A DNA stretch of 64,000 nucleotides, taken from Candidatus Caenarcanales bacterium (GTDB lineage: Bacteria; Cyanobacteriota; Vampirovibrionia; LMEP-6097). Each line of letters starts with the position of its first letter. Position 1 is the stretch's first letter. Below, piece by piece: positions 18,921 through 35,679 of this stretch. The position numbers and the translations under genes were made by a program. The notes beneath the pieces are model-generated. The model saw only the letters and a list, made by a program, of their open reading frames with translations, ran no database searches and was not told where the DNA came from. The DNA is taken from the NCBI GenBank assembly GCA_022447685.1, contig JAKVAO010000004.1, positions 1,978 to 65,977 of the forward strand, read 5' to 3'.

Positions 18921-20453
18921 ATGATTAACCCAAGCTCAAATCAAAGAGACCCCAACATTAGATTCTTACTGAAAACAAATGGTGAAAAAATAACAGTAAC
19001 ACCTTATAAACAAGCTCCTATTGCCAACAAAATTCTCCACAAAAAAGATCAAACAATTCCAAGAGAAGAAACACCTAAAATAAATCCAGAAATGACAGCA
19101 GGAGATTTAACAGAAATATTATTTACATTCAAGCCAAGTGACTTCTACAACAAACAAAATAACGAAAATTTAAGAGTAGTTATAAAGGAGAAAGCAGATT
19201 TTGGCTTTGAAAGGGAAGTTAGAAAGTGGAGAGAGAAATTCCCCAAATTAAACTTTAAACAAAGATTGGGATTCTTATCTATGTTTGCAGAAAAACATGA
19301 AGAGCTAAATATAAAAACAAATCAATTTAAAAGAAATAATGACCACCTAAGAAAATTTATAGACAACCGAGCTTTAGAATTTTTAAGAAATGAAATAGCC
19401 AAGGAAGAACTTTTCTCAAATAAAAATAAAGATTCTAAAGAATTTAATGATTTCAATAATCTATTTATTTCACTAAAAAAACTCAGACACGGTTGGGCAT
19501 ATAGGCAAGACAGTATTCATCAGTTATTAGTACAAAAAATTGACTGGGAAAAACCGCTGACAGACAATACCTTGAAGCTAATAGAAAGTAGTTTCATACA
19601 TCCCATAGAACATTATGCACAAGGTAAAAGAGTTGAATACTATGAAGAAAGAGAATTACTTGCAGAAGTAAGTGCAAACTTAAAAAAATATAATCATCCA
19701 AAACAAGAAATATACAAAAATGCCTTCGAATATAATCCTAATCAAGAATTTGCATTAGCAAAATTAACAGATGTATTGGAAGAGTATTTAAAAGAACAAA
19801 AATTGTCTAACATGGGTGAAAATATGTCACCAGAAATCAATTATGCAATCGAAGGTTCGCTATATTCAATTTTCCATGACTACGCACATTATCTTTTAAA
19901 TGATGAAAATTTTATACCAAATCTTGAAAATGAAAATAAAAGTGAAGAAGATGAATTAAAAGTTAGACAAAATGAATTAAGAGTAGCTGCTGCTGAAGGT
20001 CTGATGTACTTCATATTAGATATACGCTCCTCCGGAAGATTTTCACCATCAAATGAATGGGCGGATTCATCCTACGCAAATCAACTAGAGTATTATAATA
20101 AATACAGAGATACCACACCAGGCTTAAGTAAAGAAGAAGTAGAAGTATCCAAACTTTATGGTATTTTTATGGCTCTCCAAACTATAAACCATAATATGAA
20201 TGTACTTAAAAATTATTCAAACAACAAACTTTTAAACTATCACACTAAGACAAGCGACCTAGCAAAATTTGAGCCTGCACCTACAAAAATAATAGTTAAT
20301 GGCGAGGAAACTACTTGGTACGAACTAATCAAAAAAGATCCTGCTAAATTTGAAAAAATCATTTCTGACTCAATAGATAAAATACTAGAAAATCGAAAAA
20401 AATCTGAAGAAATTATCCCAGACTCAACAGATGAAAATAAAGCTAAAATATAA
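18921..20453 (+). CDS. hypothetical K/N/E-rich effector-like protein (N-terminus MINPSSNQRDP)
   Basis: 510 aa with the N-terminal P-S-S motif of the family and no recognisable domain. Confidence 0.6.
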   Translation: MINPSSNQRDPNIRFLLKTNGEKITVTPYKQAPIANKILHKKDQTIPREETPKINPEMTAGDLTEILFTFKPSDFYNKQNNENLRVVIKEKADFGFEREVRKWREKFPKLNFKQRLGFLSMFAEKHEELNIKTNQFKRNNDHLRKFIDNRALEFLRNEIAKEELFSNKNKDSKEFNDFNNLFISLKKLRHGWAYRQDSIHQLLVQKIDWEKPLTDNTLKLIESSFIHPIEHYAQGKRVEYYEERELLAEVSANLKKYNHPKQEIYKNAFEYNPNQEFALAKLTDVLEEYLKEQKLSNMGENMSPEINYAIEGSLYSIFHDYAHYLLNDENFIPNLENENKSEEDELKVRQNELRVAAAEGLMYFILDIRSSGRFSPSNEWADSSYANQLEYYNKYRDTTPGLSKEEVEVSKLYGIFMALQTINHNMNVLKNYSNNKLLNYHTKTSDLAKFEPAPTKIIVNGEETTWYELIKKDPAKFEKIISDSIDKILENRKKSEEIIPDSTDENKAKI

Positions 20454-20455
20454 AC

Positions 20456-21175
20456 ATGCCACAAGAAATAATCATATGCAGCAGTAACCAAGGAAAATTA
20501 AGAGAGTTCGCTGAAATCCTAGATATACTCTATGAAAGATCTTCACTAGAACTAGACCCTGAACAATACTACTTCAAAAACCTAAGAGACCTAGGAATCA
20601 ATGATTTCGATCCTGAAGAAACAGGTTCAACATACCTAGAAAACGCGAGAATCAAAGCTATAGCTGGAGCTAAAAGAACTAATCAAATTTCTTTAGCAGA
20701 CGATAGTGGCATCGAAGTACAAGCTTTAAATGGTGAACCAGGTATCTACTCAGGAAGATACTTACGTGATCCAGATAAAGGAGTAAATGGTTTACTTACA
20801 AGTATGGCAGACAAAGAAAATAGAGAAGTTCGTTATGTCTGTGCGCTAGTACTTGCAAATCCAGAAGGTGAGATTATCTTCGAAACTATGTCCTACTGGT
20901 ATGGTGAACTTGCTACAGAGAAACATGGAGAGCAAGGCTTCGGTTTCGATCCGATAGTGTACCCAGTGCTAGAAACTAATTACGACGATCAGATTCATAT
21001 AGAGCAAGAATTTAAATTCCCTGAATCAGGACATACTAATAAAACTAAAACCGTAGCAGAAATGGAATCTAGAGAGAAAAACTCATACAGTCATAGATTT
21101 AAAGCTATGAAGAAATTACTTAGATTTCTTTTAAAGAAAGTTGATTTGGCACAGGATAGTGCTGATGTCATCTAG
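20456..21175 (+). CDS. rdgB: non-canonical purine NTP pyrophosphatase (Ham1/RdgB family)
   Basis: The N-terminus IIICSSNQGKLREF and the C-terminal SHRFKAMKKLLRFL fit RdgB/Ham1. Confidence 0.8.
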   Translation: MPQEIIICSSNQGKLREFAEILDILYERSSLELDPEQYYFKNLRDLGINDFDPEETGSTYLENARIKAIAGAKRTNQISLADDSGIEVQALNGEPGIYSGRYLRDPDKGVNGLLTSMADKENREVRYVCALVLANPEGEIIFETMSYWYGELATEKHGEQGFGFDPIVYPVLETNYDDQIHIEQEFKFPESGHTNKTKTVAEMESREKNSYSHRFKAMKKLLRFLLKKVDLAQDSADVI

Positions 21176-24186: not shown

Positions 24187-24603
24187 TTATCTTTTCGATG
24201 TCATTGCAAGTTTTTTATCATTGTCCTGATTTAAGCCCTCCAAATAAAGCTTTCCCTCAAGTACAGTAACAGCAGATCCAGCAAGCTTAGACTTGTATCC
24301 ACCACTTGCATCGAGAGAAATTTGAATTTCAAGTCGCCCTTTACGCTTTAGAATATCTCCCTACTCTGCTTTGAGAATAAGTTTAGCTGCATCATCAAGT
24401 TCATAAACATTATTCTTTACTAGATAAACAGCCATAGGGCCATTAGCAGAGTCGGTAACTGGATCCTCAAAAATATCGAAGTAAGGAGAGAAAAACCTCG
24501 AACAAAAATGTGAATCTTCATCATGAGTCTCAGTAGTAAAAACCGCAAAACCTTTAGTTTCAAGCTCAGTACCAAAGGCTTCTAATTCAGCATATATAAA
24601 CAA
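24187..24603 (-). pseudogene. remnant of a PhzF-family (phenazine-biosynthesis-like epimerase) gene: N-terminally truncated and with an in-frame TAG
   Basis: The 80-aa ORF (...SRFFSPYFDIFEDPVTDSANGPMAVYLV...) matches the second half of PhzF. After the TAG at 24361..24363 the same frame continues GDILKRKGRLEIQISLDASGGYKSKLAGSAVTVLEGKLYL, the PhzF C-terminus. The total of about 135 aa compares with about 280 aa for an intact protein. Confidence 0.6.
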
Positions 24604-24853: not shown

Positions 24854-27800
24854 ATGGAAACTGATACACAGAAAGAAGAACTTTTTAGGATGCTACAAAT
24901 TCGTCCTGTACAAGAAAAAACTGAAAATCTAAAATATATTTTCACAAAAAAACTAGATAACTCAACACTAAGGCTTGATCTTCAAAAAACCAGAAATAAC
25001 TATAAACAAGTTAAAAAAATTACTGAAGAATTTGTTAAATCAGCGAGGTTTAAATCTAAATTTAATTCAGAAAAGCTAAATGCAATTGCACAGCTACTAG
25101 AAACTCAGAGAAAAACTCCTGATTTAGCGAAACTAAGAGTAGAATTGAAAACTATAATTGGACCTGATTCTAATAAGTTCACCAAAATCAATACCAATGA
25201 AGAAGAAATTAACCAAATGTGGGATTCTCTTACAGCAACTACTATTTCACAAGAAGAACCTGAGAAAAGAGAAGAATTAATCCAAAGCTTGAGAACTCAA
25301 AACTTTCTTCAAGCATTAAACAATGATTCTAATGTCCTAGAGGATGATACTGAGGTTTTAAGATTACTTAAAGCAAGACCAACTCTAGCAAGCGTTGATG
25401 AAATCAATAATCTTCAAGCAAGAGCTTTTGAGAAGAGAGGAAGAGCACAAAGAACTAAAAACGAAACACAAGACTTTAGTAGAAGAGTAGCTCTATACAA
25501 TAGAATTAAAGAGCTGGAAAACACCAGTAAAGATCTCAATAAAATCTACAAAGTTAATATCAAAGAATCAAGCAAAAGTGCTTCTAAAAATGATATTCAA
25601 CAATCAAAAGCGATACTAGAAAGCCTCAAAAAAGAAAAACCTACAACGGTAAGAAACAACGCTAGTAGTATAAATGTAAATAGAACTATAGTTAATAGGT
25701 TAAACGTTAAAACATTCAATTCACTTGCAAGTTCAAGCAAAGCTAACACTGCTGTTCTAAATAGAGGGGCAGCAAATACTGCTCTAGCAGAGGATTTAGA
25801 AAATGAAGAATTATTTTTACTTTCATCTAATAAAACTAAAGCCACTATTCTTTCAAATAATATCCAAAGAAAACTTACATCTAAATCACAAGCTGTACTT
25901 AAGGACTTTGAAAAAGGTGCTGATGATGAATTAGAAATTAGAAAAACTGAAAATGAAATCGATAAAAGATTAAATCTAGCAAATAAATTAATGATGCAAG
26001 ACTTGCCTACTAAATCAATAATCAAATTAACTAGATTGAGAGAGGCTTCTAAAGCACAATCTTCTAGATTTAATTTTGATCCAGATATCTATAAACTTTT
26101 CAGACCTAGAGTTGATTTATCTAGCTTAAACCCTAATAAAATTACCGGTTCATTTAAGGTTATCGGGATTGGTGACTTACTAAAAGTTGAACAAGAACTA
26201 GTTGACTACCAGGCTTCAGAAGTTTCACATGTTGAAAATGTTATGCAATCTGAAAATAAAAATAGATCATTTAGAAGAAAAACTAATCAAGAAGAAACTT
26301 TATTCACTTCTGAAACGATTGAAGAAGAAAATTCTTATGATCTTCAAAGTACCAAGAGAAGCCAAATGTACAATGAAGTTCAGTCTCAGATTAGAAATGA
26401 AAGCGAAATGAGCTTAGGTATTAATCTTTCAGCCAAATATGGTCCTGTGAAACTTAGTACGGATGCAAACTTCAGCTCAAGACAATCAAAAGAACAAAGC
26501 GCTAAAACAGCTTCTGACTTTGCTAAAGAAGTTACTGAGAAATCAGCAAATACCATCAGCAGTAAAGTTCAAGAAGAAAGAACTACCAAAACTCAAACTG
26601 AGGTTGAAGAGCTTAGTTCACATGGTTTCGATAACTCAAATGGTTCAGGGCATGTAGTTGGAATTTACCAGTGGTTAAACAAGAGATATAAAAACAGAGT
26701 TGTTAACTATGGTAAAAGATTAATGCTTGAGTTCATGGTTCCAGAACCAGCTGCTTTCTATAAGTACGCTCAAGAAAACCCTGTTAATGATATCGATACT
26801 ACTTATATCCCAGCCAAACCAGATCCAATCGGTGATTTAAACTACAGTGATATCAACAGGTCTAACTATAGTGTCTTTGCAGCTAAATATAATGCTGTCG
26901 GCATTCAAGCCCCTCCATCAAGTAAGATCTGCCTTGGTACTAGTATCACCAAGGATTACTCTAAAAAGCAAGAGTATTCTGTAATGATGAACAAGGAATT
27001 AAAAATCCCTGATGGTTATCAAGCCGATAATGCTGAAATTGACTATAGTGCTGTCTGGAGTTCAAATGATTCACCAGCTATCTACTTACTAGTAGGTGAT
27101 GAGAAATTCAAATACTCTGATGGTAACCATATTTTAAATCTTAAAAATGAAGTTGGTACACTTCCCATTTCACTTATGTGCGATTTAAAAGCTATAGCAA
27201 TCAACATCGACGTAGAATGCAAACTTAGAGAAGAAACTTATCAGAACTGGCAAATAGCTACTTATGAAGCAATCAAAGCTGCATACGATAAGATGCAAAA
27301 TGAGTACGAAGATGCTATGCGTCAAGCTGAAATCGATACAGGAGTTCAAATCCGTGGTAACAACCCAGATAAGAATAGAATCACAGAGCAGACTGAACTT
27401 AAAAAATCATGTATCAGAATTCTTTCAAGAGATAGTTTCGAAAACTTCGATGCTATGAAAGATGCTGTTTCGTTTGGTTATCCTGAATTTGATTTAGATG
27501 ATGCTGAACAAGAAGGAAAGTATGTTCAATTCATGGAACAAGCTTTTGAATGGGAGCAAATGACTTACATTAACTATCCTTACTTCTGGGGAAGAAAAAC
27601 TAATTGGTTAGAAACTCAATCATTGTCTGATACAGATCCTAAATTTGAAGCTTTCCTAAAAGCTGGTTACGCTAAAGTAAATATGCCAGTAAGACCAGGC
27701 TATGAAGATGCAGTAATGTACTTCATCAACTCCGGCGGAGAGATTTGGAAAGGTGGTGAAGCACCTGTAATCAACGATCCTATGTATGTATCAATCGCTG

Positions 27801-27910
27801 AAGAGCTTTCAGAGCCTGAAGGTGAGCAAGTAGGTGAAGAATGGGAAACTAAAGTAGCTACTAACTTAGTAATGATTAACCAAGAATCTAAGCTGCCTAG
27901 CTTCAGCTAA
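24854..27910 (+). CDS. large hypothetical protein (1018 aa): K/E/N-rich coiled-coil N-half and globular C-half
   Basis: Strong SD (AAAGGAAGAG) 6 nt upstream of the ATG. No recognisable catalytic motif. Followed by patatin 52 bp downstream. Confidence 0.6.
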   Translation: METDTQKEELFRMLQIRPVQEKTENLKYIFTKKLDNSTLRLDLQKTRNNYKQVKKITEEFVKSARFKSKFNSEKLNAIAQLLETQRKTPDLAKLRVELKTIIGPDSNKFTKINTNEEEINQMWDSLTATTISQEEPEKREELIQSLRTQNFLQALNNDSNVLEDDTEVLRLLKARPTLASVDEINNLQARAFEKRGRAQRTKNETQDFSRRVALYNRIKELENTSKDLNKIYKVNIKESSKSASKNDIQQSKAILESLKKEKPTTVRNNASSINVNRTIVNRLNVKTFNSLASSSKANTAVLNRGAANTALAEDLENEELFLLSSNKTKATILSNNIQRKLTSKSQAVLKDFEKGADDELEIRKTENEIDKRLNLANKLMMQDLPTKSIIKLTRLREASKAQSSRFNFDPDIYKLFRPRVDLSSLNPNKITGSFKVIGIGDLLKVEQELVDYQASEVSHVENVMQSENKNRSFRRKTNQEETLFTSETIEEENSYDLQSTKRSQMYNEVQSQIRNESEMSLGINLSAKYGPVKLSTDANFSSRQSKEQSAKTASDFAKEVTEKSANTISSKVQEERTTKTQTEVEELSSHGFDNSNGSGHVVGIYQWLNKRYKNRVVNYGKRLMLEFMVPEPAAFYKYAQENPVNDIDTTYIPAKPDPIGDLNYSDINRSNYSVFAAKYNAVGIQAPPSSKICLGTSITKDYSKKQEYSVMMNKELKIPDGYQADNAEIDYSAVWSSNDSPAIYLLVGDEKFKYSDGNHILNLKNEVGTLPISLMCDLKAIAINIDVECKLREETYQNWQIATYEAIKAAYDKMQNEYEDAMRQAEIDTGVQIRGNNPDKNRITEQTELKKSCIRILSRDSFENFDAMKDAVSFGYPEFDLDDAEQEGKYVQFMEQAFEWEQMTYINYPYFWGRKTNWLETQSLSDTDPKFEAFLKAGYAKVNMPVRPGYEDAVMYFINSGGEIWKGGEAPVINDPMYVSIAEELSEPEGEQVGEEWETKVATNLVMINQESKLPSFS

Positions 27911-27962
27911 TTGACTATTACAAAATTTAGTCACAAACTCGAAAATAAAAGGTGCATAAGCT

Positions 27963-29342
27963 GTGGACTATATCAAGAAAGAAGATGTAGAGTATTTAGT
28001 CTTTGAAGGTGGCGGAGGGGCAGGTAATGCCTTTCCCGGTGCCCTAAATGCTTTAGAAGAATTAAAGATACTTCAATTCAAAAAAAATAAAGTAGTAGGA
28101 AAAATAAGAGGCTTTGGTGGAGCTTCTGCTGGGGCAATTAATGCTCTATTCCTCTCTTTAGGATATAGTCCCAGTGAAATGCAAACTATACTTGATCAAA
28201 ACAACTTCGAGGATTTCTTTGACACACCAAACATCACCCATAGACCATATACTTTTACTGCTAAGAAAAGTACTAAAGTAAAAGATGACTTAGCAAAGCT
28301 TGCAAAAGAACTTGAGCAAGGAGTTTTTGGGAATATCTTTAAATATTGTTTTGGATGGATTTTATCAAATAAAGCAATAAGTAGCTTAGCCTGGGGAACC
28401 ATAGCTGCAGGTTATACGATGCTTAGTTACTTTTTTGGTGCAGCTCTTTCAGCCATAAGCATAGTCATGATGGGTAAAATGCCACAACAAATGCTTAAAA
28501 AAATAAAAGATAACCTGAAAAATAATAAAGTACAATTCTCCTTACTTTTCCACTATGGAATTTTCCCAGGTTTTACTTTTAGACACTTTCTAAATAAATA
28601 CATTAAACTTGCTGTAAATAGAGTCGGAGCCTCTGATATAAGTGGTGATGAAATTACTATCAGTGGAGTTAAGAAAAAAATTCAAGACATTAACTTTGCT
28701 GACCATGAAAAGATTTTCGGCATAAAGTTAATAGTTACTGGAACCAATCTAGAAACTATGAAAAGTGTCCAGTTCAGTTCTCTTACTACTCCTAATTTTC
28801 CTATTGCTGATGCCGTAAGAATCTCAATGAGTATTCCTATGGCATTTCAGCCTTTAATCCTAAAAGATGACAATGATCTTAGACAAGTAATCAAAAGTGG
28901 AGAAAACCCAAGAAACCATTTCCTCAAAGGAGTCTGGGTTGATGGAGGTTTACTCAACAACGCCCCTGTAGCAGCTTTTGATCAAATAGCTGGAACTCAT
29001 ACTAAAACACTTGCTCTTAGATTAAGACAGGATGAAAGAAGTGAAATAGAAACAGTTTTTGATTTCTTCAAAATCTATCCACTTAGTTTAGGACTTATGG
29101 GTACTGGTGAAGCTTATATCGATAATGCTGCAAGTACCTTTGATAGAACTATCAATATCAAGGTGAAAAATAGTGAAATGGGTTTATTTGATTTTAAAGT
29201 GGATAAAGCAACCTTTACAAAAGTAAATGATAGATCTAAGAAGACGGTCAAAGACTTTTTTGCAAGTGCAGCAGCTATCCAAAGAATTAAAGATGAAGCA
29301 CAGAAAACTGGTTCAGGTGAGTATCCTGTTAATGATTTATAA
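27963..29342 (+). CDS. patatin-like phospholipase
   Basis: Glycine-rich oxyanion loop FEGGGGAGNAFPG, serine hydrolase motif GASAGA (G-x-S-x-G) and the Asp dyad motif VDGGLLNNAPV. GTG start with an AAGGTG SD. Carries a hydrophobic insert (AWGTIAAGYTMLSYFFGAALSAISIVMMG). Confidence 0.8.
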   Translation: MDYIKKEDVEYLVFEGGGGAGNAFPGALNALEELKILQFKKNKVVGKIRGFGGASAGAINALFLSLGYSPSEMQTILDQNNFEDFFDTPNITHRPYTFTAKKSTKVKDDLAKLAKELEQGVFGNIFKYCFGWILSNKAISSLAWGTIAAGYTMLSYFFGAALSAISIVMMGKMPQQMLKKIKDNLKNNKVQFSLLFHYGIFPGFTFRHFLNKYIKLAVNRVGASDISGDEITISGVKKKIQDINFADHEKIFGIKLIVTGTNLETMKSVQFSSLTTPNFPIADAVRISMSIPMAFQPLILKDDNDLRQVIKSGENPRNHFLKGVWVDGGLLNNAPVAAFDQIAGTHTKTLALRLRQDERSEIETVFDFFKIYPLSLGLMGTGEAYIDNAASTFDRTINIKVKNSEMGLFDFKVDKATFTKVNDRSKKTVKDFFASAAAIQRIKDEAQKTGSGEYPVNDL

Positions 29343-29350
29343 TAAATCTG

Positions 29351-30145
29351 ATGGATAAAAAAGCAGATATTGGAATTTTTGGTGGTAGTGGACTCTACTC
29401 TTTCTTAGAAAACGTAGAAGAAGTTCAAGTAGAGAGTGAATATGGACCCTGCTCAGATTCAGTATTCATAGGAGAATACGCCGGTAAAAAAATAGCTTTC
29501 TTACCACGTCACGGACGCAAACATACTATCCCACCTCATAAGATCAACTACCGAGCAAACGTAAACGCCATGAAAAAACTAGGAGTAAGCTCAGTAATCT
29601 GCCCATGTGCTGTAGGAAGTTTAAAAAAAGAAATAGAACCGGGTCACTTTGTAATAGCAGACCAGTGGGTTGATAGAACGAATGGCAGAGCCGATACTTT
29701 CTTTGATGGACCTATTGCAACACATGTCAGTGCTGCTTATCCTTATATAGAAGAATTAAGAAAACTCGCTATAAATTCTGCAAAAGAAAACTCTATTACC
29801 GTACATGAAAAAGGTACTATAGCTGTTATTAATGGTCCTAGATTCAGTTCAAGAGCAGAATCTGAATGGTTTACAAAAATGGGATGGGATATTATAAATA
29901 TGACCCAATACCCTGAAGCACATCTAGTAAGAGAAGCCGGTATGGCATGTGTAAATATTTCTTTAGTTACTGACTATGACTGTGGTTTAGTAGCTGATTG
30001 TGAACCAGTTAGTCACGCTGCTGTTTTCGAAGTATTTAATAACAATATTGATAAATTAAGAAAAATGTTATTCACCTTAATTGAAAAAATTCCAGTAGGA
30101 GAATATTGGGGTGCAGACAAGGTTTTAGAAAACTCTAGATTTTAA
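29351..30145 (+). CDS. mtnP: S-methyl-5'-thioadenosine phosphorylase (PNP/MTAP family)
   Basis: IGIFGGSGLY, RHGRKHTIPPHKINYRANV and IINMTQYPEAHLVREAGMACVNISLVTDYD are MTAP blocks. It starts 8 nt after the patatin stop. Confidence 0.85.
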   Translation: MDKKADIGIFGGSGLYSFLENVEEVQVESEYGPCSDSVFIGEYAGKKIAFLPRHGRKHTIPPHKINYRANVNAMKKLGVSSVICPCAVGSLKKEIEPGHFVIADQWVDRTNGRADTFFDGPIATHVSAAYPYIEELRKLAINSAKENSITVHEKGTIAVINGPRFSSRAESEWFTKMGWDIINMTQYPEAHLVREAGMACVNISLVTDYDCGLVADCEPVSHAAVFEVFNNNIDKLRKMLFTLIEKIPVGEYWGADKVLENSRF

Positions 30146-30171
30146 TTACATTAATACTCTAATTTATACAA

Positions 30172-30204
30172 TAAAAAAAGCCGCTCATAATGAGCGGCTT
30201 TTTC
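30172..30204. terminator. bidirectional rho-independent terminator AAAAAAAGCCGCTCATAATGAGCGGCTTTTTC
   Basis: 8-bp GC-rich stem GCCGCTCA/TGAGCGGC with a 3-nt loop, flanked by an A-run and a T-run. It lies between the convergent mtnP and giant-protein genes. Confidence 0.8.
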
Positions 30205-30225: not shown

Positions 30226-33200
30226 TTAGTTAACCTCTTTGTATCTAAGTTTCACAACTGGGTTTGAAATACTGTCATCCAAAACTTCTATTTCCAAAAG
30301 ATTATCTGATCCAGCAATATAAGTACTGTTATCAACTTTAATGAAATAACTTGGGAAACTTGGGGTAAAAAAGCCAGTTAACCTTAAGAAATATCTATGA
30401 CCTTGATGTAAATTAGTTGCTGTAAAAGTAGTATTGGAAGTCATAGTCTTAGTGAAATAACTATGTTCAGCACTTAAATCAATTACATTGCCAACTAAAA
30501 CACCCTTATCAGTAGTAAGAGAAGAAATAGTACCTGGTGCTAAGTCAGCAGCAGTAATACTACCATCTTGAATATCATCACCAGTTAAAGATTCATCTAG
30601 AACTTTATCTGTGGTAACAGCATCAGGAGCTAACTTAGTATTAATTACACTGCCATCTGCCAAATCTACTGTATCAATAGTTCCATCTAAAATATCAACT
30701 GAAGTAATTGAGTTATCAGCAATCTCAGTTGTAGTAACAGAAGCAGGTCCAACAGTAATTGCACCTAAAGTACTTGGGTGAAGATCCTGAGGTAGAATAG
30801 TTCCATCAAGTATCTTAGTTGTAGTTACTGCATTTGGTCCTATTTTCTGATTAGTTACCGCCGAGATACCAAGATCAGCACTTTGAATCGAAGCATCTAA
30901 AATATGGAAAGAGTTTACAGCAGAGCCTAAAATTTTGTCAGATGTCACCGATGAATTAGCGATTTTTATTGATGTAACCGATGCTGAAGCTAGTTTGGTA
31001 TCAGTTATAGAAAAATCTGCTATCTTTGATGTAGTAACCGAGTCATTAATTAACTTAGGCGTTGATATAGAATTATTAGCAATCTTAGCTGCTGTTACAG
31101 CATTATTTGCTAATTTTGCTGTTGTTATTGAACCATCAGCAACAGTAAGAGAAGTTAATACAACTGGATCTAGATCTGCTACTTGGATAGTGCCGTCTAA
31201 TATCTTACTACTTGTTACTGCATCTACAGCAAGCTTAGGGGTCGTTACACTACCATCAGCTAAATCAACTGTCACAATAGTACCGTTTTGGATATTGGAA
31301 GATAAAATTGTATTGTTTGCTATTTGAACATTAGTAATAGAGTTATTGGTAATATTTGATGCTGTTATCGTACCTGAAGCTAAATCAGCACCTGTTATTG
31401 TTCCATCCAAGATCTTGTCAGTTGTGACAACATCTGCAGCAAGCTTAGGATTAGTTACGCTACCATCAGCAAGCATAGCTGTAGTTACTGAACCTGCTCC
31501 AGGTACCACAGAACTTAGGACACTTGGATCTAAGTCTGCTACTTGGATAGTTCCATCTAGAATCTTGTTACTTGTTACTGCGTCTGTAGCGAGTTTAGAG
31601 TTGGTTATACTACCATCAGCTAAGTCTACAGTCTGGATTGTGCCATCCTGAATATTTGTAGATAGGATAGTATCGTTGTCTATCTGAATATTGGTAATAG
31701 AATTATTTGTAATGTTTGATGCAGTTATCGTTCCTGGGGCTAAGTCTGCACCAATAATTGTTCCATCTAGAATCTTTCCAGTGGTTACTGCATCTGAAGC
31801 AAGCTTAGGATTAGTTACACTACCATCTGCTAAGTCTACTGTTTGAACACCACCATCTTGGATCTTAATACTAGTTACTGAATTATCAGCTAGAGAACCA
31901 GTACTAATAGTTCCTGGAGCTAGGTCATCGATTGTGATCGAACCGTCTAAAATATCATCACCAGTTAAACTTTCATCTACTACTTTTGTAGTGTCTACCG
32001 CATCACCTGCTAGTTTCACTAATGTTACTGCTGCATCTGCTAGATCAGCTTCCATTACTTCACCATCTAGAATCTTTCCAGTGGTTACTGCATCTGAAGC
32101 TAATTTAAGATTAGTTACACTACCATCAGCCAAGTCTACAGTTGCAATAGTACCGTCTACTATCTTGATACTTGTTACTGAATTGTCTGCAAGTATTGTA
32201 TTAGTTACTGAACCTGCTCCAGGTACCACAGAACTTAGGACACTTGGATCTAAGTCTGCTACTTGGATAGTTCCATCTAGAATCTTGTTACTTGTTACTG
32301 CGTCTGTAGCGAGTTTAGAGTTGGTCATACTACCATCAGCTAAGTCTACAGTCTGGATTGTGCCATCCTGGATATTAGTAGACAAGATTGTATCGTTGTC
32401 TATCTGAATATTAGTAATAGAATTATTTGTAATGTTTGATGCAGTTATCGTCCCTGGGGCTAAATCTGCGCCTGTGATAGTACCATCTAAGATTTTATCT
32501 GTGGTAACTGCATCTGGAGCTAGTTTCACATTAGTCACACTACCATCTGCAAGAGAACCTGTACTAATAGTTCCTGGAGCTAAATCATCAACAGTAATTG
32601 AGCCATCTTGAATATCATCACCAGTTAAGCTTTCATCAACTACCTTTGTAGTATCTACAGAATCTACTGCTAACTTAACTAATGTCACAGCATCGTCTGC
32701 TAAATCATCTGTGATAATTGTTTCATCTAAAATCTTGTCTGTTGTTACTGCATCTGAAGCTAATTTAGGATTAGTTACGCTACCATCTGCTAAGTCTACC
32801 GTTTCAATAGTACCGTCTATTATCTTGATACTTGTTACTGAATTATCTGCAAGTATTGTATTAGTTACTGAACCTGCTCCAGGTACTACTGAAGTGAGTA
32901 CACTTGGATCTAAATCAGCAACTTGAATAGTTCCATCTAAAATCTTATTACCTGTTACAGCGTCATCAGCTAATTTAGGATTAGTTACAGCTAGGTTTCT
33001 AATTTTATTAGTTCTAACTGCATTGTTTCTAATCTTACTAGTTCTAACACTTGCATTGGCAAGATCAGCAGTAGCTATAGTTCCATCTAAAATTTTATCT
33101 GTTGTTACTGCATCTGCTGCAAGTTTAGGATTAGTTACACTACCGTCTGCAAGAGAACCTGTACTAATAGTTCCTGGAGCTAAATCATCAACAGTAATTG

Positions 33201-35679
33201 AACCATCTTGAATATCATCACCAGTTAAACTTTCATCAACTATCTTTGTCGTATCTACAGAGTCTGCCGCTAACTTAACTAATGTCACAGCATCGTCTGC
33301 TAAATCATCTGTAATAATTGTTTCATCTAAAATCTTGTCTGTTGTTACTGCATCTGCTCCAAGTTTAGGATTAGTTACACTACCATCTGCAAGCTCTGTT
33401 GTACCTACAGAACCTGGAGTAATACCAGTGATATCAGATAATCTTGCAAGAGTACCATCTCCCTCTGGAAGAGTTAAGTTTACATCTGCTGTGCTTGCAC
33501 CATTTAAAATGAATTTTGCATTATAAGTTAAGCCATCAAATGTTATCGCTTCTGTTGTAGCACTACCATTACTACTCTTTAATCTTAAAGCTTCATCCAA
33601 AGAATTCAATACTGTTGTATCTAAGTCTGCTACAGTGATCGTGCCATCTAGAATCTCATCAGAAGTTACTGAACCTGTATCTAAATCATCTGCTGTTAAT
33701 GAATTGTCTATAACCTTATCTGAATTAACTGAATCTGTTGCTAACTTGAGAACTGTTACATGACCATCTGTAATCTTGTCTGTAGTAACACTATCATTTG
33801 CTAAATCTACTGACGTAATAGTGCCATCAAAAATATTTCCACCAGTCAAAGTATTAGGAGCTACATCAGCACCGAAAATAGAGCCGTCCTGAATATCAAC
33901 ACCAGTTAAAGTACCGTCAATAACTTTATCTGAATTAACTGAATCTATTGCTAGTTTTAAAACTGTTACATGACCGTCTGTGATCTTACTTGTAGTAACT
34001 GCATCATCGGCTAGATCAGCTGTTCCTACTTCACCATCTAAAATTTTATCTGTTGTTACTGCATCTGCTGCAAGTTTAGGATTAGTTACACTACCATCTG
34101 CAAGCTCTGTTGTACCTACAGAACCTGGAGTAATACCAGTAATATCAGATAATCTTGCTAAAGTACCATCTCCCTCTGGAAGAGTTAAGTTCACATCTGC
34201 TGTGCTTGCACCATTTAAAATGAATTTTGCATTGTAAGTTAAACCATCAAATGTTATCGCTTCTGTTGTAGCACTAGCATTACTACTTTTAAGTCTTAAA
34301 GCTTCATCCAAAGAATTTAATACTGCTGTATCTAAGTCTGCTGCCGTGATTGTGCCATCATCTATCTTGTCAGTTGTTACCGCATCTGCTGCTAATTTAG
34401 GATTAGTTACACTACCATCTGCTAACTGAGCAGTATTCACAGTTCCATTACCAGGAGTTAAACCTACTAAATCCTCTAATCTTGCTACAGTACCGTTTGC
34501 TGCAGGCAAAGTTAAATTAGTTAATTCAGCCTGAGAATTCAATACAGTATTAAAATTACCAATATAGGTTGTGAACTTAGTAGTGTCAGTAGAGCTTTGC
34601 AGCTTCTTAACTGAATCATCACCATCAGGATTAAAAACAAAGTTTCTTCTAGTACTATTAGAAGTGAAATATAAATCACCTGAATTATCAAATTCAAAAG
34701 CACCTTCTGTAAGTGAGCTTGGTAGAGGACTTGGTCTAAATCTCATAATTGGTAACTCTTGAGAATTATCACCTGGAGCTATATCCAAAGTCGCCTCAGG
34801 ACTATCTTCATTAATACCAATTCTTCTATTAGAGTCTATAACTAGAATAGGAACCGATGGATCTGTGCTTGATGTTACAGCCATGATTTTACCGTTTTGA
34901 ACAATAATTGGAAGATCACCAGAAATACCAGAAGTTTCAGTTCCAGGATTAGCCTCTGAAGTTTCAGAATCAAAGTCTACTACTTCATTAGAACCATATC
35001 TTAGTCTTTTACGTCTAACTACCTCTCTTTTGCGAGAAGGAACAACTGGAATATTTACCTCAACAGTATTATTTTGGTTATCAGAAACAACAGAAATAGC
35101 CTTAGAATTACCTCTTGTGCTAGCATTCCATCTAACGTTGTTTACAAGGAAATCCATCACAGTTTCTTTAACTGAATCATAATCAGGGTTTACACTTTGA
35201 GCTAAATTATTTGCATAAACACCTTCAGCGTTTAAATCTACACTATTAGTTAATAATAATTTATCGTTAGAAGCATACCACTCGATGTAAACAGTTTTAG
35301 ATCCAGTAAATGGCATTAAAGGTAAATCTAATTGATAATCTTTTAAATTTTTCTTACCCTTTGGGAATTTTACGTAGGTTTTTGAAATTACATCTTTTTG
35401 TCCTAAAGCATTAACCTCATATGCTCTATACGAAAAAGAATCTTCCGTACTATCAGGAGCCAAAAATAAATTTGGGCTTACCCTTAATCTTAGACGCGCC
35501 TCACTTTCTGGAAAAACTTTATTAAAGTCTTCATCCTGGCCAAATACGTTAATATCGCATTCACCTGATACACATTCCAAAGGAACGAACTGAGCCTTCG
35601 CTATATTTGGCATGAAATAGCCCTGCAGTAAAACTGCACATAGCAAGGTCAAGGTTAAGGTTTGTCTAAGTAATTTCAT
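30226..35679 (-). CDS. giant secreted repeat protein (1817 aa), decapeptide-repeat beta-solenoid-like; putative surface adhesin
   Basis: N-terminal signal peptide MKLLRQTLTLTLLCAVLLQGYF. A non-repeat head of about 430 aa is followed by roughly 130 copies of a ~10-aa unit ([IL]-x-[DN]-[GA]-[ST]-[IV]-T-x-x-[KND], for example LADGSVTNPKLAADAVTTDKILDGTI), and then a C-terminal domain of about 100 aa. Confidence 0.8.
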   Translation of the reverse strand: MKLLRQTLTLTLLCAVLLQGYFMPNIAKAQFVPLECVSGECDINVFGQDEDFNKVFPESEARLRLRVSPNLFLAPDSTEDSFSYRAYEVNALGQKDVISKTYVKFPKGKKNLKDYQLDLPLMPFTGSKTVYIEWYASNDKLLLTNSVDLNAEGVYANNLAQSVNPDYDSVKETVMDFLVNNVRWNASTRGNSKAISVVSDNQNNTVEVNIPVVPSRKREVVRRKRLRYGSNEVVDFDSETSEANPGTETSGISGDLPIIVQNGKIMAVTSSTDPSVPILVIDSNRRIGINEDSPEATLDIAPGDNSQELPIMRFRPSPLPSSLTEGAFEFDNSGDLYFTSNSTRRNFVFNPDGDDSVKKLQSSTDTTKFTTYIGNFNTVLNSQAELTNLTLPAANGTVARLEDLVGLTPGNGTVNTAQLADGSVTNPKLAADAVTTDKIDDGTITAADLDTAVLNSLDEALRLKSSNASATTEAITFDGLTYNAKFILNGASTADVNLTLPEGDGTLARLSDITGITPGSVGTTELADGSVTNPKLAADAVTTDKILDGEVGTADLADDAVTTSKITDGHVTVLKLAIDSVNSDKVIDGTLTGVDIQDGSIFGADVAPNTLTGGNIFDGTITSVDLANDSVTTDKITDGHVTVLKLATDSVNSDKVIDNSLTADDLDTGSVTSDEILDGTITVADLDTTVLNSLDEALRLKSSNGSATTEAITFDGLTYNAKFILNGASTADVNLTLPEGDGTLARLSDITGITPGSVGTTELADGSVTNPKLGADAVTTDKILDETIITDDLADDAVTLVKLAADSVDTTKIVDESLTGDDIQDGSITVDDLAPGTISTGSLADGSVTNPKLAADAVTTDKILDGTIATADLANASVRTSKIRNNAVRTNKIRNLAVTNPKLADDAVTGNKILDGTIQVADLDPSVLTSVVPGAGSVTNTILADNSVTSIKIIDGTIETVDLADGSVTNPKLASDAVTTDKILDETIITDDLADDAVTLVKLAVDSVDTTKVVDESLTGDDIQDGSITVDDLAPGTISTGSLADGSVTNVKLAPDAVTTDKILDGTITGADLAPGTITASNITNNSITNIQIDNDTILSTNIQDGTIQTVDLADGSMTNSKLATDAVTSNKILDGTIQVADLDPSVLSSVVPGAGSVTNTILADNSVTSIKIVDGTIATVDLADGSVTNLKLASDAVTTGKILDGEVMEADLADAAVTLVKLAGDAVDTTKVVDESLTGDDILDGSITIDDLAPGTISTGSLADNSVTSIKIQDGGVQTVDLADGSVTNPKLASDAVTTGKILDGTIIGADLAPGTITASNITNNSITNIQIDNDTILSTNIQDGTIQTVDLADGSITNSKLATDAVTSNKILDGTIQVADLDPSVLSSVVPGAGSVTTAMLADGSVTNPKLAADVVTTDKILDGTITGADLASGTITASNITNNSITNVQIANNTILSSNIQNGTIVTVDLADGSVTTPKLAVDAVTSSKILDGTIQVADLDPVVLTSLTVADGSITTAKLANNAVTAAKIANNSISTPKLINDSVTTSKIADFSITDTKLASASVTSIKIANSSVTSDKILGSAVNSFHILDASIQSADLGISAVTNQKIGPNAVTTTKILDGTILPQDLHPSTLGAITVGPASVTTTEIADNSITSVDILDGTIDTVDLADGSVINTKLAPDAVTTDKVLDESLTGDDIQDGSITAADLAPGTISSLTTDKGVLVGNVIDLSAEHSYFTKTMTSNTTFTATNLHQGHRYFLRLTGFFTPSFPSYFIKVDNSTYIAGSDNLLEIEVLDDSISNPVVKLRYKEVN
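31490..34340. repeat. higher-order tandem duplications (units of 600 to 720 bp, more than 90% identical) inside the giant gene
   Basis: Near-identical segments occur starting at 31491 and 32211 (720-bp period), at 32551 and 33151 (600 bp), and at 33361 and 34072 (711 bp). Confidence 0.7.

What the first reader, a model, noticed from the sequence alone, without database searches (positions are those of the whole stretch)
24854..30204. Operon of a 1018-aa unknown protein, a patatin-like phospholipase and an MTAP/PNP-family phosphorylase, ending at a strong terminator
The three genes are co-directional with gaps of 52 nt and 8 nt. A single bidirectional terminator closes the operon at 30172..30204.

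The patatin has an intact catalytic dyad (GASAG, DGG) and an unusual hydrophobic insert (about 28263..28470). The 1018-aa partner has a long K/E/N-rich coiled-coil N-half and a large globular C-half with no recognisable motif.

Patatin-like lipases are used as membrane-attacking effectors, both in secreted toxins (ExoU/VipD type, each with a partner or chaperone) and in phage-defence modules. PNP/MTAP-fold enzymes also recur as nucleotide-depleting effectors. Finding one of each co-transcribed with a giant unknown protein deserves a look, although the MTAP here has all the housekeeping motifs. The operon sits immediately downstream of a decayed PhzF gene.
Basis: partly seen in the sequence, partly recalled or inferred. 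Interest (0 to 1): 0.6.

Follow-up and report, generated by a model that had tools for sequence, protein, structure and literature searches.

The report
Unknown toxin-partner protein with patatin lipase
The 1018-aa "unknown" protein belongs to a very large, unnamed protein family that sits directly upstream of interchangeable toxin genes across bacteria and archaea; here its toxin is a patatin lipase, and the neighbouring MTAP gene is only a housekeeping bystander.

Summary
The three ORFs, their 52-nt and 8-nt gaps, the patatin GASAG/DGG motifs, the hydrophobic insert, the terminator and the PhzF remnant are all present as described.

The functional unit is two genes, not three.

- **The 1018-aa protein ("c0").** It has no Pfam, NCBIfam, PADLOC or PDB match. 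It nevertheless belongs to a family of more than 3,000 clusters at 50% identity, found in many bacterial phyla and in some archaea.
- **Its downstream partner.** Of 171 family members examined, 158 have a co-directional gene directly downstream. That gene is hypervariable and carries classic polymorphic-toxin domains (metallopeptidase, nucleases, deaminases, ADP-ribosyltransferase, RelA_SpoT). SUKH-type immunity genes often follow it.
- **The patatin.** It is a recurrent partner of c0. Four of five blindly chosen relatives of this patatin lie right after a c0 homologue, and a haloarchaeal plasmid carries the same pair.
- **MTAP.** It follows the pair only in relatives that are at least 92% identical.

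c0 carries a conserved amphipathic β-hairpin. I infer that it is the delivery, possibly pore-forming, partner of the toxin. This mechanism is not proven. I found no published description of the family.

The parts
24854..27910 (+). c0: 1018-aa member of a large unannotated protein family that is the conserved upstream partner of variable toxin genes
   Evidence: ORF. No Pfam, NCBIfam, PADLOC or PDB hit. 3,388 clusters at 50% identity with E<=1e-10. 401 loci in GTDB species genomes.
24875..24913 (+). Conserved N-terminal motif of the family (residues ~8-20, consensus F.F..LRP), predicted as a beta-strand
   Evidence: F11 and R17 are at least 90% conserved in 110 sequences. Strand E8-18 in the AF2 model.
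26141..27907 (+). Conserved C-terminal ~590-aa region (residues 430-1018): long beta-strands, a beta-sandwich, and helical and alpha/beta subdomains
   Evidence: Alignments A2 and A6. AF2 models. 33-41% identity to homologues in many phyla.
26408..26479 (+). Putative amphipathic beta-hairpin (residues 519-542, MSLGINLSAKYGPVKLSTDANFSS) flanked by T/E- and S/T-rich tracts; candidate membrane-inserting element
   Evidence: Strict hydrophobic/polar alternation on both sides of the conserved Y-G-P turn. It gives the strongest period-2 signal in the whole protein. The pattern is kept across 168 homologues, with indels only at the turn. AF2 models it with low confidence.
27963..29342 (+). Patatin-like phospholipase, the effector (toxin) partner of c0
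   Evidence: PF01734 E 7.7e-28. The catalytic motifs are invariant in c0-linked patatins from 5 bacterial lineages and a haloarchaeon. Four of five sampled relatives lie directly downstream of a c0 homologue.
28119..28133 (+). GASAG nucleophile elbow (Ser55)
28941..28949 (+). DGG motif (catalytic Asp327)
28263..28475 (+). Insert in the patatin with a Gly/Ala/Ser-rich hydrophobic stretch. The TM-like character is specific to this lineage; an insert of variable sequence is present in all c0-linked patatins.
29351..30145 (+). MTAP-like purine nucleoside phosphorylase. Probably co-transcribed, but a housekeeping bystander.
   Evidence: NCBIfam MTAP models score just under cutoff. Adjacent to the pair only in W, L006 and L007. 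Absent in L086 and L001.
30174..30204 (.). Strong palindromic intrinsic terminator shared by the convergent genes
24190..24603 (-). Remnant of a PhzF-family gene (C-terminal third only, with an in-frame stop); context, not part of the module

Best explanation
Genes 24854..27910 and 27963..29342 form a two-gene toxin cassette.

**Shown.**
- The first gene, c0, is a member of a very large undescribed family.
- The defining context of that family is a co-directional, often translationally coupled, hypervariable toxin gene immediately downstream.
- In this window the toxin is a catalytically intact patatin-type phospholipase A.
- c0 stays conserved while its partner is swapped between lipases, nucleases, deaminases, peptidases and other toxins.

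**Inferred.**
- Because c0 is constant while the toxin changes, its role should be independent of the toxic activity. The likely roles are stabilising, carrying or translocating the toxin.
- My preferred mechanism is that c0 binds its cognate toxin and both are released from the producer by an unknown route. c0 would then oligomerise on a target membrane and insert the conserved amphipathic beta-hairpin (residues 519-542). This would form a beta-barrel pore or translocon that gives the effector access to the target membrane or cytoplasm. That arrangement resembles a binary (A+B) toxin.
- The patatin would then hydrolyse membrane phospholipids.

The MTAP gene merely shares the transcript and terminator. 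The pore and translocation steps, the release route and the nature of the target (bacterium or eukaryote) are inferred, not shown.
For: **Size and spread of the family.**
- 3,388 clusters at 50% identity score E<=1e-10.
- 1,337 clusters at 90% identity match the C-half.
- 401 loci occur in GTDB species genomes from Bacteroidota, Actinomycetota, Bacillota, Proteobacteria, Chloroflexota, Melainabacteria and Methanoperedens.
- Homologues also occur on plasmids of B. thuringiensis, rhizobia, Streptomyces and a haloarchaeon.

**Gene context.**
- 158 of 171 c0 genes have a co-directional ORF within 400 nt; the median gap is 45 nt.
- The C-termini of 57 downstream proteins carry these domains: Tox-MPTase4 x8, WHH x2, EndoU x2, Colicin-DNase x2, CdiA_C, Gln_amidase, two deaminase families, RelA_SpoT, Ntox28, ART, CHAP and patatin.
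- SUKH immunity genes follow some of these toxin genes.
- One downstream protein shows PT-TG plus CdiA_C in Rhizobium, both scoring just under the Pfam cutoffs.

**Polymorphism of the toxin relative to c0.**
- In one pair of loci c0 is 94% identical, the toxin N-terminus 91% and the toxin C-terminus 39%.
- In another pair c0 is 97% identical while the toxin is only 27% and 24% identical.

**Patatin as a partner.**
- It is found after c0 in the window lineage, in L086, L001, Chloroflexota L009, Bacillota L017/L018, Bacteroidota L016/L026/L054 and on the Natronorubrum plasmid.
- In the reverse test, 4 of 5 sampled patatin relatives lie just downstream of a c0 homologue, with overlapping stop/start codons or a gap of a few nt.
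- Patatin is the commonest recognisable partner in the clade that contains the window's c0.

**The hairpin.**
- It gives the strongest period-2 amphipathic signal in the protein.
- It is conserved as a pattern across 168 sequences, including archaeal ones.
- Indels occur only at the YGP turn, and S/T/E-rich tracts flank it.
- AF2 cannot model residues ~473-589 with confidence although the segment is highly conserved.

**Accessory proteins.** Some loci encode lectin-like or receptor-binding-like proteins: Laminin_G_3, GH16 and Toxin_R_bind_N.
Against: - Neither c0 nor the toxins have a signal peptide, and no export route is evident.
- The two AF2 models disagree on the inner pair of long strands, residues 467-491 and 568-592.
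- No immunity gene is evident next to the patatin in the window or in most patatin-type loci.
- The window patatin is a single-domain protein that co-diverges with c0 (57% and 59% identity to L001). It is not a polymorphic C-terminal module.
- The loci with the clearest polymorphic-toxin signature are Bacteroidota c0 homologues that are only ~35% identical to the window protein.
Confidence: 0.5

Rival explanations
1. Intracellular anti-phage (abortive infection) system. c0 would be a sensor or regulator that unleashes its neighbouring effector (patatin, nuclease and so on) on the producer's own cell after infection.
For: - Neither protein has a signal peptide.
- Variable effectors beside a conserved large protein are typical of defence systems.
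- Patatin is a known defence effector type, and the patatin gives weak PADLOC phospholipase-effector hits.
- Several c0 loci lie on plasmids or in variable regions, some next to helicase, HTH and transposase genes.
- Patatin-type loci lack an obvious immunity gene.
Against: - c0 has no PADLOC hit.
- Downstream genes carry SUKH immunity proteins, the pre-toxin PT-TG domain, orphan toxin fragments and C-terminal cassette swapping. These are hallmarks of exported polymorphic toxins.
- Some partners are cell-wall hydrolase-like (CHAP), and some loci encode lectin-like accessory proteins.
- c0 is absent from 50,697 phage genomes, so there is no sign of phage counter-use. This last point is weak.
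Confidence: 0.2
2. c0 is an adaptor, chaperone or co-effector that loads the downstream toxin onto a secretion machine encoded elsewhere (T6SS, T7SS, an extracellular contractile injection system or T9SS). It would not be a self-sufficient translocator.
For: - Known toxin systems often pair an effector with an upstream adaptor or chaperone.
- Many downstream toxins have hydrophobic helical segments that might need chaperoning.
- Het-C-type toxins were previously linked to PVC-type injection systems (PMC3482391).
Against: - The family spans diderm bacteria, monoderm bacteria and archaea. No single secretion machine has that distribution.
- No secretion-system genes recur in 170 neighbourhoods.
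- A length of 1,000-1,500 aa is far larger than known adaptors.
- This idea does not explain the conserved amphipathic hairpin.
Confidence: 0.17
3. All three genes, MTAP included, form one functional unit, for example a nucleotide-depleting plus membrane-attacking defence operon.
For: There is an 8-nt gap, no internal terminator, and one shared strong terminator.
Against: - MTAP scores as ordinary MTAP.
- It follows the pair only in relatives that are at least 92% identical.
- It is missing from the 85% and 57% relatives and from all other c0 loci.
Confidence: 0.03
4. Chance adjacency of a housekeeping lipase and a structural or surface protein.
For: None beyond the lack of annotation.
Against: The pairing recurs across phyla and domains with coupled or overlapping genes, and it holds in the reverse test that starts from the patatin.
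Confidence: 0.02

Closest known systems
Polymorphic toxin systems (Zhang, de Souza, Anantharaman, Iyer & Aravind 2012, PMC3482391)
   Same: Homologous loci have toxins with swapped C-terminal domains drawn from the same Pfam toxin repertoire (Tox-MPTase4, WHH, EndoU, CdiA_C, deaminases, ART, Ntox28). They also have SUKH immunity genes and orphan fragments downstream.
   Different: - The conserved element is a separate upstream gene (c0) with no known trafficking domain.
- No link to T2SS, T5SS, T6SS, T7SS, PVC or MuF is visible.
- In the window the toxin is a whole single-domain patatin without recognisable immunity.
- I found no mention of this family in that paper.
Binary A+B toxins with a beta-barrel translocase (anthrax PA with LF/EF; C2, iota, Vip1/Vip2). 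Comparison from general knowledge.
   Same: A separately encoded large component carries an amphipathic hairpin flanked by polar tracts, and an adjacent gene encodes an enzymatic toxin.
   Different: - No sequence or fold similarity to PA-type or aerolysin-type proteins.
- No signal peptide.
- Targets are probably microbial in most homologous loci.
- Pore formation is untested.
Tc (ABC) toxin complexes. Comparison from general knowledge.
   Same: A conserved large delivery component is combined with a hypervariable toxic cargo encoded next to it.
   Different: c0 has no TcA, TcB or Rhs-repeat features and no fold match. Its size and architecture are different.
T6SS Tle phospholipase effectors with VgrG or adaptor partners, and ExoU/VipD-type patatin effectors
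   Same: A lipase effector is encoded beside a dedicated partner gene. The catalytic Ser-Asp dyad is intact.
   Different: - There is no T6SS, T3SS or T4SS context.
- The VpdC model gives only a partial 59-bit match against a 1000-bit cutoff.
- The partner family also occurs in monoderm bacteria and archaea.
Patatin effectors of anti-phage systems (for example CBASS CapV; PADLOC phospholipase effector models)
   Same: Patatin fold. Weak PADLOC hits (E 8.7e-5) over the N-terminal 100 residues.
   Different: No cyclase or other sensor genes are present, c0 is not in PADLOC, and homologous loci carry immunity genes.

Membership tests
Patatin-like phospholipase (PF01734) | Profile match above the gathering score | tested here: met
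   98.4 bits against a cutoff of 27.7; E 7.7e-28
Patatin-like phospholipase (PF01734) | Gly-rich oxyanion loop, GxSxG nucleophile and DG[GA] catalytic Asp | tested here: met
   GGGGAG at residues 15-20, GASAG at 53-57 and DGG at 327-329. G16-18, S55 and D327 are invariant in 8 c0-linked patatins. The usual Arg/Lys of GGGxRG is Ala here.
S-methyl-5'-thioadenosine phosphorylase (MTAP; NF005876, TIGR01694) | Score at or above the equivalog cutoff | tested here: inconclusive
   303.9 against 306 and 269.8 against 274.85. The match is full-length and just below both cutoffs.
Polymorphic toxin system | Toxin with a conserved N-region and a variable C-terminal toxin domain | tested here: not met
   Not met by the window patatin, which is single-domain and co-diverges with c0. 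Met in homologous Bacteroidota loci.
Polymorphic toxin system | Cognate immunity gene immediately downstream | tested here: not met
   In the window the next gene is MTAP. SUKH-type immunity genes are present in homologous loci.
Polymorphic toxin system | Recognised trafficking domain or linked secretion system | tested here: not met
   c0, the patatin and the c1-type toxins have no Pfam or NCBIfam trafficking domain. No secretion genes recur nearby.
Beta-barrel pore-forming toxins and translocases (aerolysin, haemolysin, PA type) | Amphipathic beta-hairpin with alternating residues, flanked by Ser/Thr-rich tracts | tested here: met
   Residues 519-542. The pattern is conserved in 168 homologues.
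Beta-barrel pore-forming toxins and translocases (aerolysin, haemolysin, PA type) | Sequence or fold homology to a known PFT family | tested here: not met
Beta-barrel pore-forming toxins and translocases (aerolysin, haemolysin, PA type) | Oligomerisation and membrane pore formation | not testable with these tools
   Needs biochemistry, cryo-EM or multimer modelling.
Known anti-phage defence systems (PADLOC-DB v2) | Match of the system's proteins to defence models | tested here: not met
   c0 and MTAP give no hit. The patatin gives only weak N-terminal hits, E 8.7e-5 and 2.4e-4.
ExoU/VipD/VpdC-type secreted patatin effectors | Equivalog-level similarity and a T3SS or T4SS context | tested here: not met
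   NF043045 VpdC gives 59 bits against a cutoff of 1000, covering about 50 residues. There is no secretion-system context.

The most novel reading that the evidence does not exclude
c0 defines a previously unrecognised toxin-delivery platform that does not depend on the producer's envelope type. It would be a self-inserting beta-barrel translocase, encoded next to interchangeable toxins, and used from Bacteroidota to Actinomycetota, Melainabacteria and archaea. That would amount to a prokaryote-wide family of binary polymorphic toxins.
Probability: 0.3. Interest if true: 0.9.

Novelty: new variant of a known kind. Interest (0 to 1): 0.7.

Why it matters
- **Annotation.** Thousands of proteins of about 1,000-1,500 aa that are now labelled "hypothetical" would gain a functional context as the constant partner of polymorphic toxins. 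Their unannotated neighbours could then be flagged as candidate toxins and immunity proteins.
- **Delivery route.** If c0 is a delivery or translocation device, it would be a toxin-delivery route that needs none of the known secretion machines and works across envelope types. That bears on microbial competition.
- **Engineering.** Such a device could be relevant to protein-delivery tools.
- **This genome.** For this Melainabacteria genome it identifies a likely lipase weapon. It also removes MTAP from any effector role.

Tried and rejected
1. **Direct annotation of c0.** Pfam, NCBIfam, PADLOC, PHROGs, phmmer against PDB, and a 110-sequence profile against PDB gave nothing. The only outputs were a PHROG at E 0.012 and spurious helical matches to coronavirus nsp8.
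3. **A shared module between toxin types.** I tested whether the patatin's hydrophobic insert matches the hydrophobic N-region of the c1-type toxins. An HMM gave at most 7.6 bits, so there is no relationship.
4. **Toxin domains fused to long c0 proteins.** The long Bacteroidota c0 proteins (up to 1,581 aa) carry no recognisable Pfam toxin or receptor domain.
5. **A conserved MTAP in L001.** The PNP_UDP_1 gene near the pair in L001 is not an MTAP orthologue.
6. **Phage origin.** No c0 homologue occurs in 50,697 phage genomes.
7. **Metagenome scan for close relatives.** It returned only distant Bacteroidota-type homologues. These were useful for context statistics but not for testing MTAP synteny.
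8. **Literature.** Seven full-text searches and reading of PMC3482391 and PMC12419801 found no description of this family or of a c0-like partner. Absence from this library is not proof of absence.
9. **Second AF2 run on the C-half alone.** It did not improve the region 473-589, and it lost the inner strand pair.

Full report
**1. Observation**

All are on the + strand, with gaps of 52 and 8 nt.
- A palindromic hairpin at 30174..30204 has a 13-14 bp stem with A7 and T5 flanks. It folds at -19.1 and -20.2 kcal/mol on the two strands (z about -6; 0 of 200 shuffles fold as well). It lies between the MTAP gene and the convergent 1817-aa gene.
- The middle protein is a patatin (PF01734, E 7.7e-28) with GASAG and DGG at the stated positions. 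It also has a Gly/Ala/Ser-rich hydrophobic insert at residues ~101-171.
- The third protein scores as MTAP, just below the NCBIfam equivalog cutoffs.
- Upstream lies the C-terminal third of a PhzF gene with an in-frame stop. That gene is intact in two close relatives.
- The closest genomes are MAGs of Candidatus Caenarcaniphilales/Melainabacteria, at 95% and 92% identity for the big protein.

**2. The 1018-aa protein is not an orphan**

- It has no hit in Pfam, NCBIfam, PADLOC or PDB sequences.
- Searching with the C-terminal 589 residues found 1,337 clusters at 90% identity.
- An exhaustive HMMER search with a four-sequence profile found 3,388 clusters at 50% identity with E<=1e-10.
- A scan of one genome per GTDB species found 401 loci.
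- Members come from Bacteroidota, Actinomycetota, Bacillota, Proteobacteria, Chloroflexota, Acidobacteriota, Melainabacteria and the archaeon Methanoperedens.
- Plasmid copies occur in Bacillus thuringiensis HD-771, rhizobia, Streptomyces, Chryseobacterium and the haloarchaeon Natronorubrum bangense. None occurs in 50,697 phage genomes.
- Every named member is annotated "hypothetical protein". I call the family c0.
- The conserved parts are a short N-terminal motif (F.F..LRP), a LWD.L motif near residue 123, and the C-terminal ~590 residues. There are 25 invariant columns in 110 sequences.

**3. What lies next to c0**

I called ORFs in 173 loci and located 171 c0 genes.

- 158 of the 171 have a co-directional ORF of at least 100 aa that starts within 400 nt of the c0 stop. 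The median gap is 45 nt, and many overlap.
- In Bacteroidota this gene is usually a 600-920-aa protein (cluster c1). It has a shared N-region with hydrophobic helices and a variable C-terminus.
- The last 330 residues of 57 such downstream proteins hit classic polymorphic-toxin domains:

| Domain | Count |
|---|---|
| Tox-MPTase4 | 8 |
| WHH | 2 |
| EndoU_bacteria | 2 |
| Colicin-DNase | 2 |
| CdiA_C | 1 |
| Gln_amidase | 1 |
| YwqJ-deaminase | 1 |
| XOO_2897-deaminase | 1 |
| RelA_SpoT | 1 |
| Ntox28 | 1 |
| ADP-ribosyltransferase (ADPrib_exo_Tox, ART) | 1 each |
| CHAP | 1 |
| Patatin | 1 |

- Small genes that follow include the SUKH-family immunity proteins SMI1_KNR4 and SUKH-3.
- Truncated c1 fragments further downstream look like displaced orphan cassettes.
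- The Rhizobium partner shows PT-TG plus CdiA_C, both just under the Pfam cutoffs. The Paenibacillus and Streptomyces partners give weak Het-C matches.
- Two partners, apparently from Actinomycetota loci, are flavin amine oxidases.
- Between closely related loci c0 stays conserved while the toxin changes. In L066 versus L072, c0 is 94% identical, the toxin N-terminus 91% and the toxin C-terminus 39%. In L056 versus L069, c0 is 97% identical but the toxin only 27% and 24%.
- Some loci add lectin-like proteins with Laminin_G_3, GH16 and Toxin_R_bind_N domains.
- In Flavobacteria a divergent Peptidase_S24 (LexA-like) regulator is frequent upstream.

Together these are the hallmarks of polymorphic toxin loci as defined in PMC3482391. 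The difference is that the constant element is a separate upstream gene.

**4. The patatin is a cognate partner of c0**

- A patatin follows c0 in all of these: the window and its 95% and 92% relatives; an 85% relative (L086, where the patatin is split into two ORFs); a 57% relative whose record is labelled Gammaproteobacteria (L001/L008, 3-nt gap, different flanking genes); a Chloroflexota MAG (L009); two Bacillota MAGs (L017, L018); three Bacteroidota (L016, L026, L054); and the Natronorubrum plasmid, where RefSeq itself annotates a patatin-like phospholipase.
- All eight aligned c0-linked patatins keep the oxyanion loop, the GxSxG motif and the DGG motif. All also have an insert after the nucleophile elbow.
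- Reverse test: starting from the window patatin, only about 30 clusters match over the full length. Four of them (28-39% identity) lie just downstream of a gene that tblastn confirms as a c0 homologue, with overlapping stop/start codons or a gap of a few nt.
- In a neighbour-joining tree of c0 C-halves, the window protein falls in a multi-phylum clade of ~970-aa proteins. Patatin partners are scattered through that clade, and patatin is its commonest recognisable partner there.

**5. MTAP is a bystander**

- It follows the pair only in W, L006 and L007.
- After the pair, L086 has an unrelated 199-aa gene.
- L001 has an opposite-strand gene and then a PNP_UDP_1 protein with no similarity to the window's MTAP.
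- No other c0 locus has an MTAP.
- The 8-nt gap and the absence of an internal terminator make co-transcription likely. The association is still only positional.

**6. Structure and mechanism**

- AF2 with a 110-sequence alignment gave pLDDT 76.5. The model has these parts:
  - a helical N-half;
  - two very long outer beta-strands (434-464 and 600-630) enclosing a poorly modelled segment;
  - a beta-sandwich (~690-790);
  - long helices (793-858);
  - an alpha/beta C-terminal domain.
- A second run on the C-half alone reproduced everything except residues 473-589, which fell below pLDDT 50. That segment is nevertheless among the most conserved: R502, E508 and G530 are invariant.
- Within that segment, residues 519-542 alternate hydrophobic and small polar residues on both sides of a Y-G-P turn.
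  - This is the strongest period-2 amphipathic signal in the protein.
  - The pattern, rather than the exact sequence, is kept across 168 homologues, including archaeal ones.
  - Indels are confined to the turn.
  - T/E-rich and S/T-rich tracts flank it.
- From general knowledge, this is the signature of the membrane-inserting hairpin of beta-barrel pore-forming toxins and of the anthrax PA translocase.
- c0 is constant while its partners span unrelated enzymatic activities. Its role should therefore be generic, such as stabilising, carrying or translocating the toxin.
- My preferred model is a binary toxin in which c0 is the membrane-inserting B component.
- The release route is unknown, since neither protein has a signal peptide. 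The target is unknown too.
- Patatin-type loci lack an obvious immunity gene. This may mean non-self targets, activation only on delivery, or a different biology.

**7. Rivals**

- *Abortive-infection defence.* This remains possible at about 0.2. It explains the lack of signal peptides and of immunity genes in patatin loci. It is hard to reconcile with SUKH immunity genes, PT-TG, cassette swapping, CHAP-type partners and lectin-like accessory proteins.
- *Adaptor for a distant secretion machine.* About 0.17. The distribution across monoderm bacteria, diderm bacteria and archaea, and the absence of recurrent secretion genes, argue against it.
- *A three-gene functional operon, or chance adjacency.* The comparative data contradict both.

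**8. Novelty**

- Polymorphic toxins, patatin effectors and binary toxins are all known kinds.
- The new elements are the c0 family itself, its role as the constant partner of swappable toxins, and its spread into archaea.
- I found no description of it in Pfam, NCBIfam, PADLOC, the PDB or seven literature searches. This cannot exclude a paper outside the searchable library.
- I therefore rate it a new variant of a known kind, with a 0.3 chance that it is a truly new delivery machine.

Noticed in passing
window 30226..35679 (- strand): 1817-aa protein with a hydrophobic N-terminus and long arrays of degenerate ~20-25-aa repeats of the type DGSVTNPKLAxDAVTTDKILDGTI. It has no Pfam family above threshold. 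The orthologue in the 95% relative L006 is only 1366 aa, so the repeat number varies. TRF reports a 360-nt unit x1.8 at 31165..31827.
   Followed up: partly
window 24190..24603 (- strand); L006 6659..7606; L007 1576..2463: The PhzF-family gene is reduced to its last ~109 codons with an in-frame stop. It is intact in L006 (315 aa) and L007 (295 aa). L006 also has three extra genes between phzF and c0, which implies a deletion in the window lineage.
   Followed up: yes
L007 3057..6083; L086 13034..14391: In close relatives the c0 gene (L007: 596 + 395 aa) or the patatin gene (L086: 253 + 199 aa) is split into two ORFs. The cause is either frameshift decay or assembly error.
   Followed up: no
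L049 5056..8295 (also L052, L063, L079): Chryseobacterium loci carry a second, different 345-aa patatin and a BspA-type leucine-rich-repeat protein just upstream of c0. Between c0 and the toxin they also have a ~120-aa protein (cluster c18) whose sequence looks nucleotidyltransferase-like by eye.
   Followed up: partly
L053 4647..11995; L084 4364..12115: Two c0 paralogues in tandem precede a single toxin gene in two Flavobacterium loci. This may hint at hetero-oligomers.
   Followed up: no
L050 7445..8140; L036 7213..8019 (and 21 further loci): A divergently transcribed Peptidase_S24 (LexA-like) regulator lies directly upstream of c0 in many Flavobacteriia. This suggests stress-inducible expression, as with colicins.
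   Followed up: partly
L174 (Natronorubrum bangense plasmid NZ_CP031306.1, 568976..574031): A haloarchaeal megaplasmid carries a c0 homologue (1147 aa), a 71-aa ORF and an annotated patatin-like phospholipase. The c0-patatin pair therefore crosses the domain boundary.
   Followed up: partly
L173 (B. thuringiensis HD-771 plasmid p01, NC_018486.1 100592..104643): A c0 homologue (967 aa) overlaps a 383-aa protein with no Pfam match on a B. thuringiensis plasmid.
   Followed up: no
window 18921..20453 (+): A 510-aa K/E/N-rich ORF of unknown function lies upstream of an ORF that resembles rdgB/Ham1 by eye (20456..21175). It was not examined.
   Followed up: no
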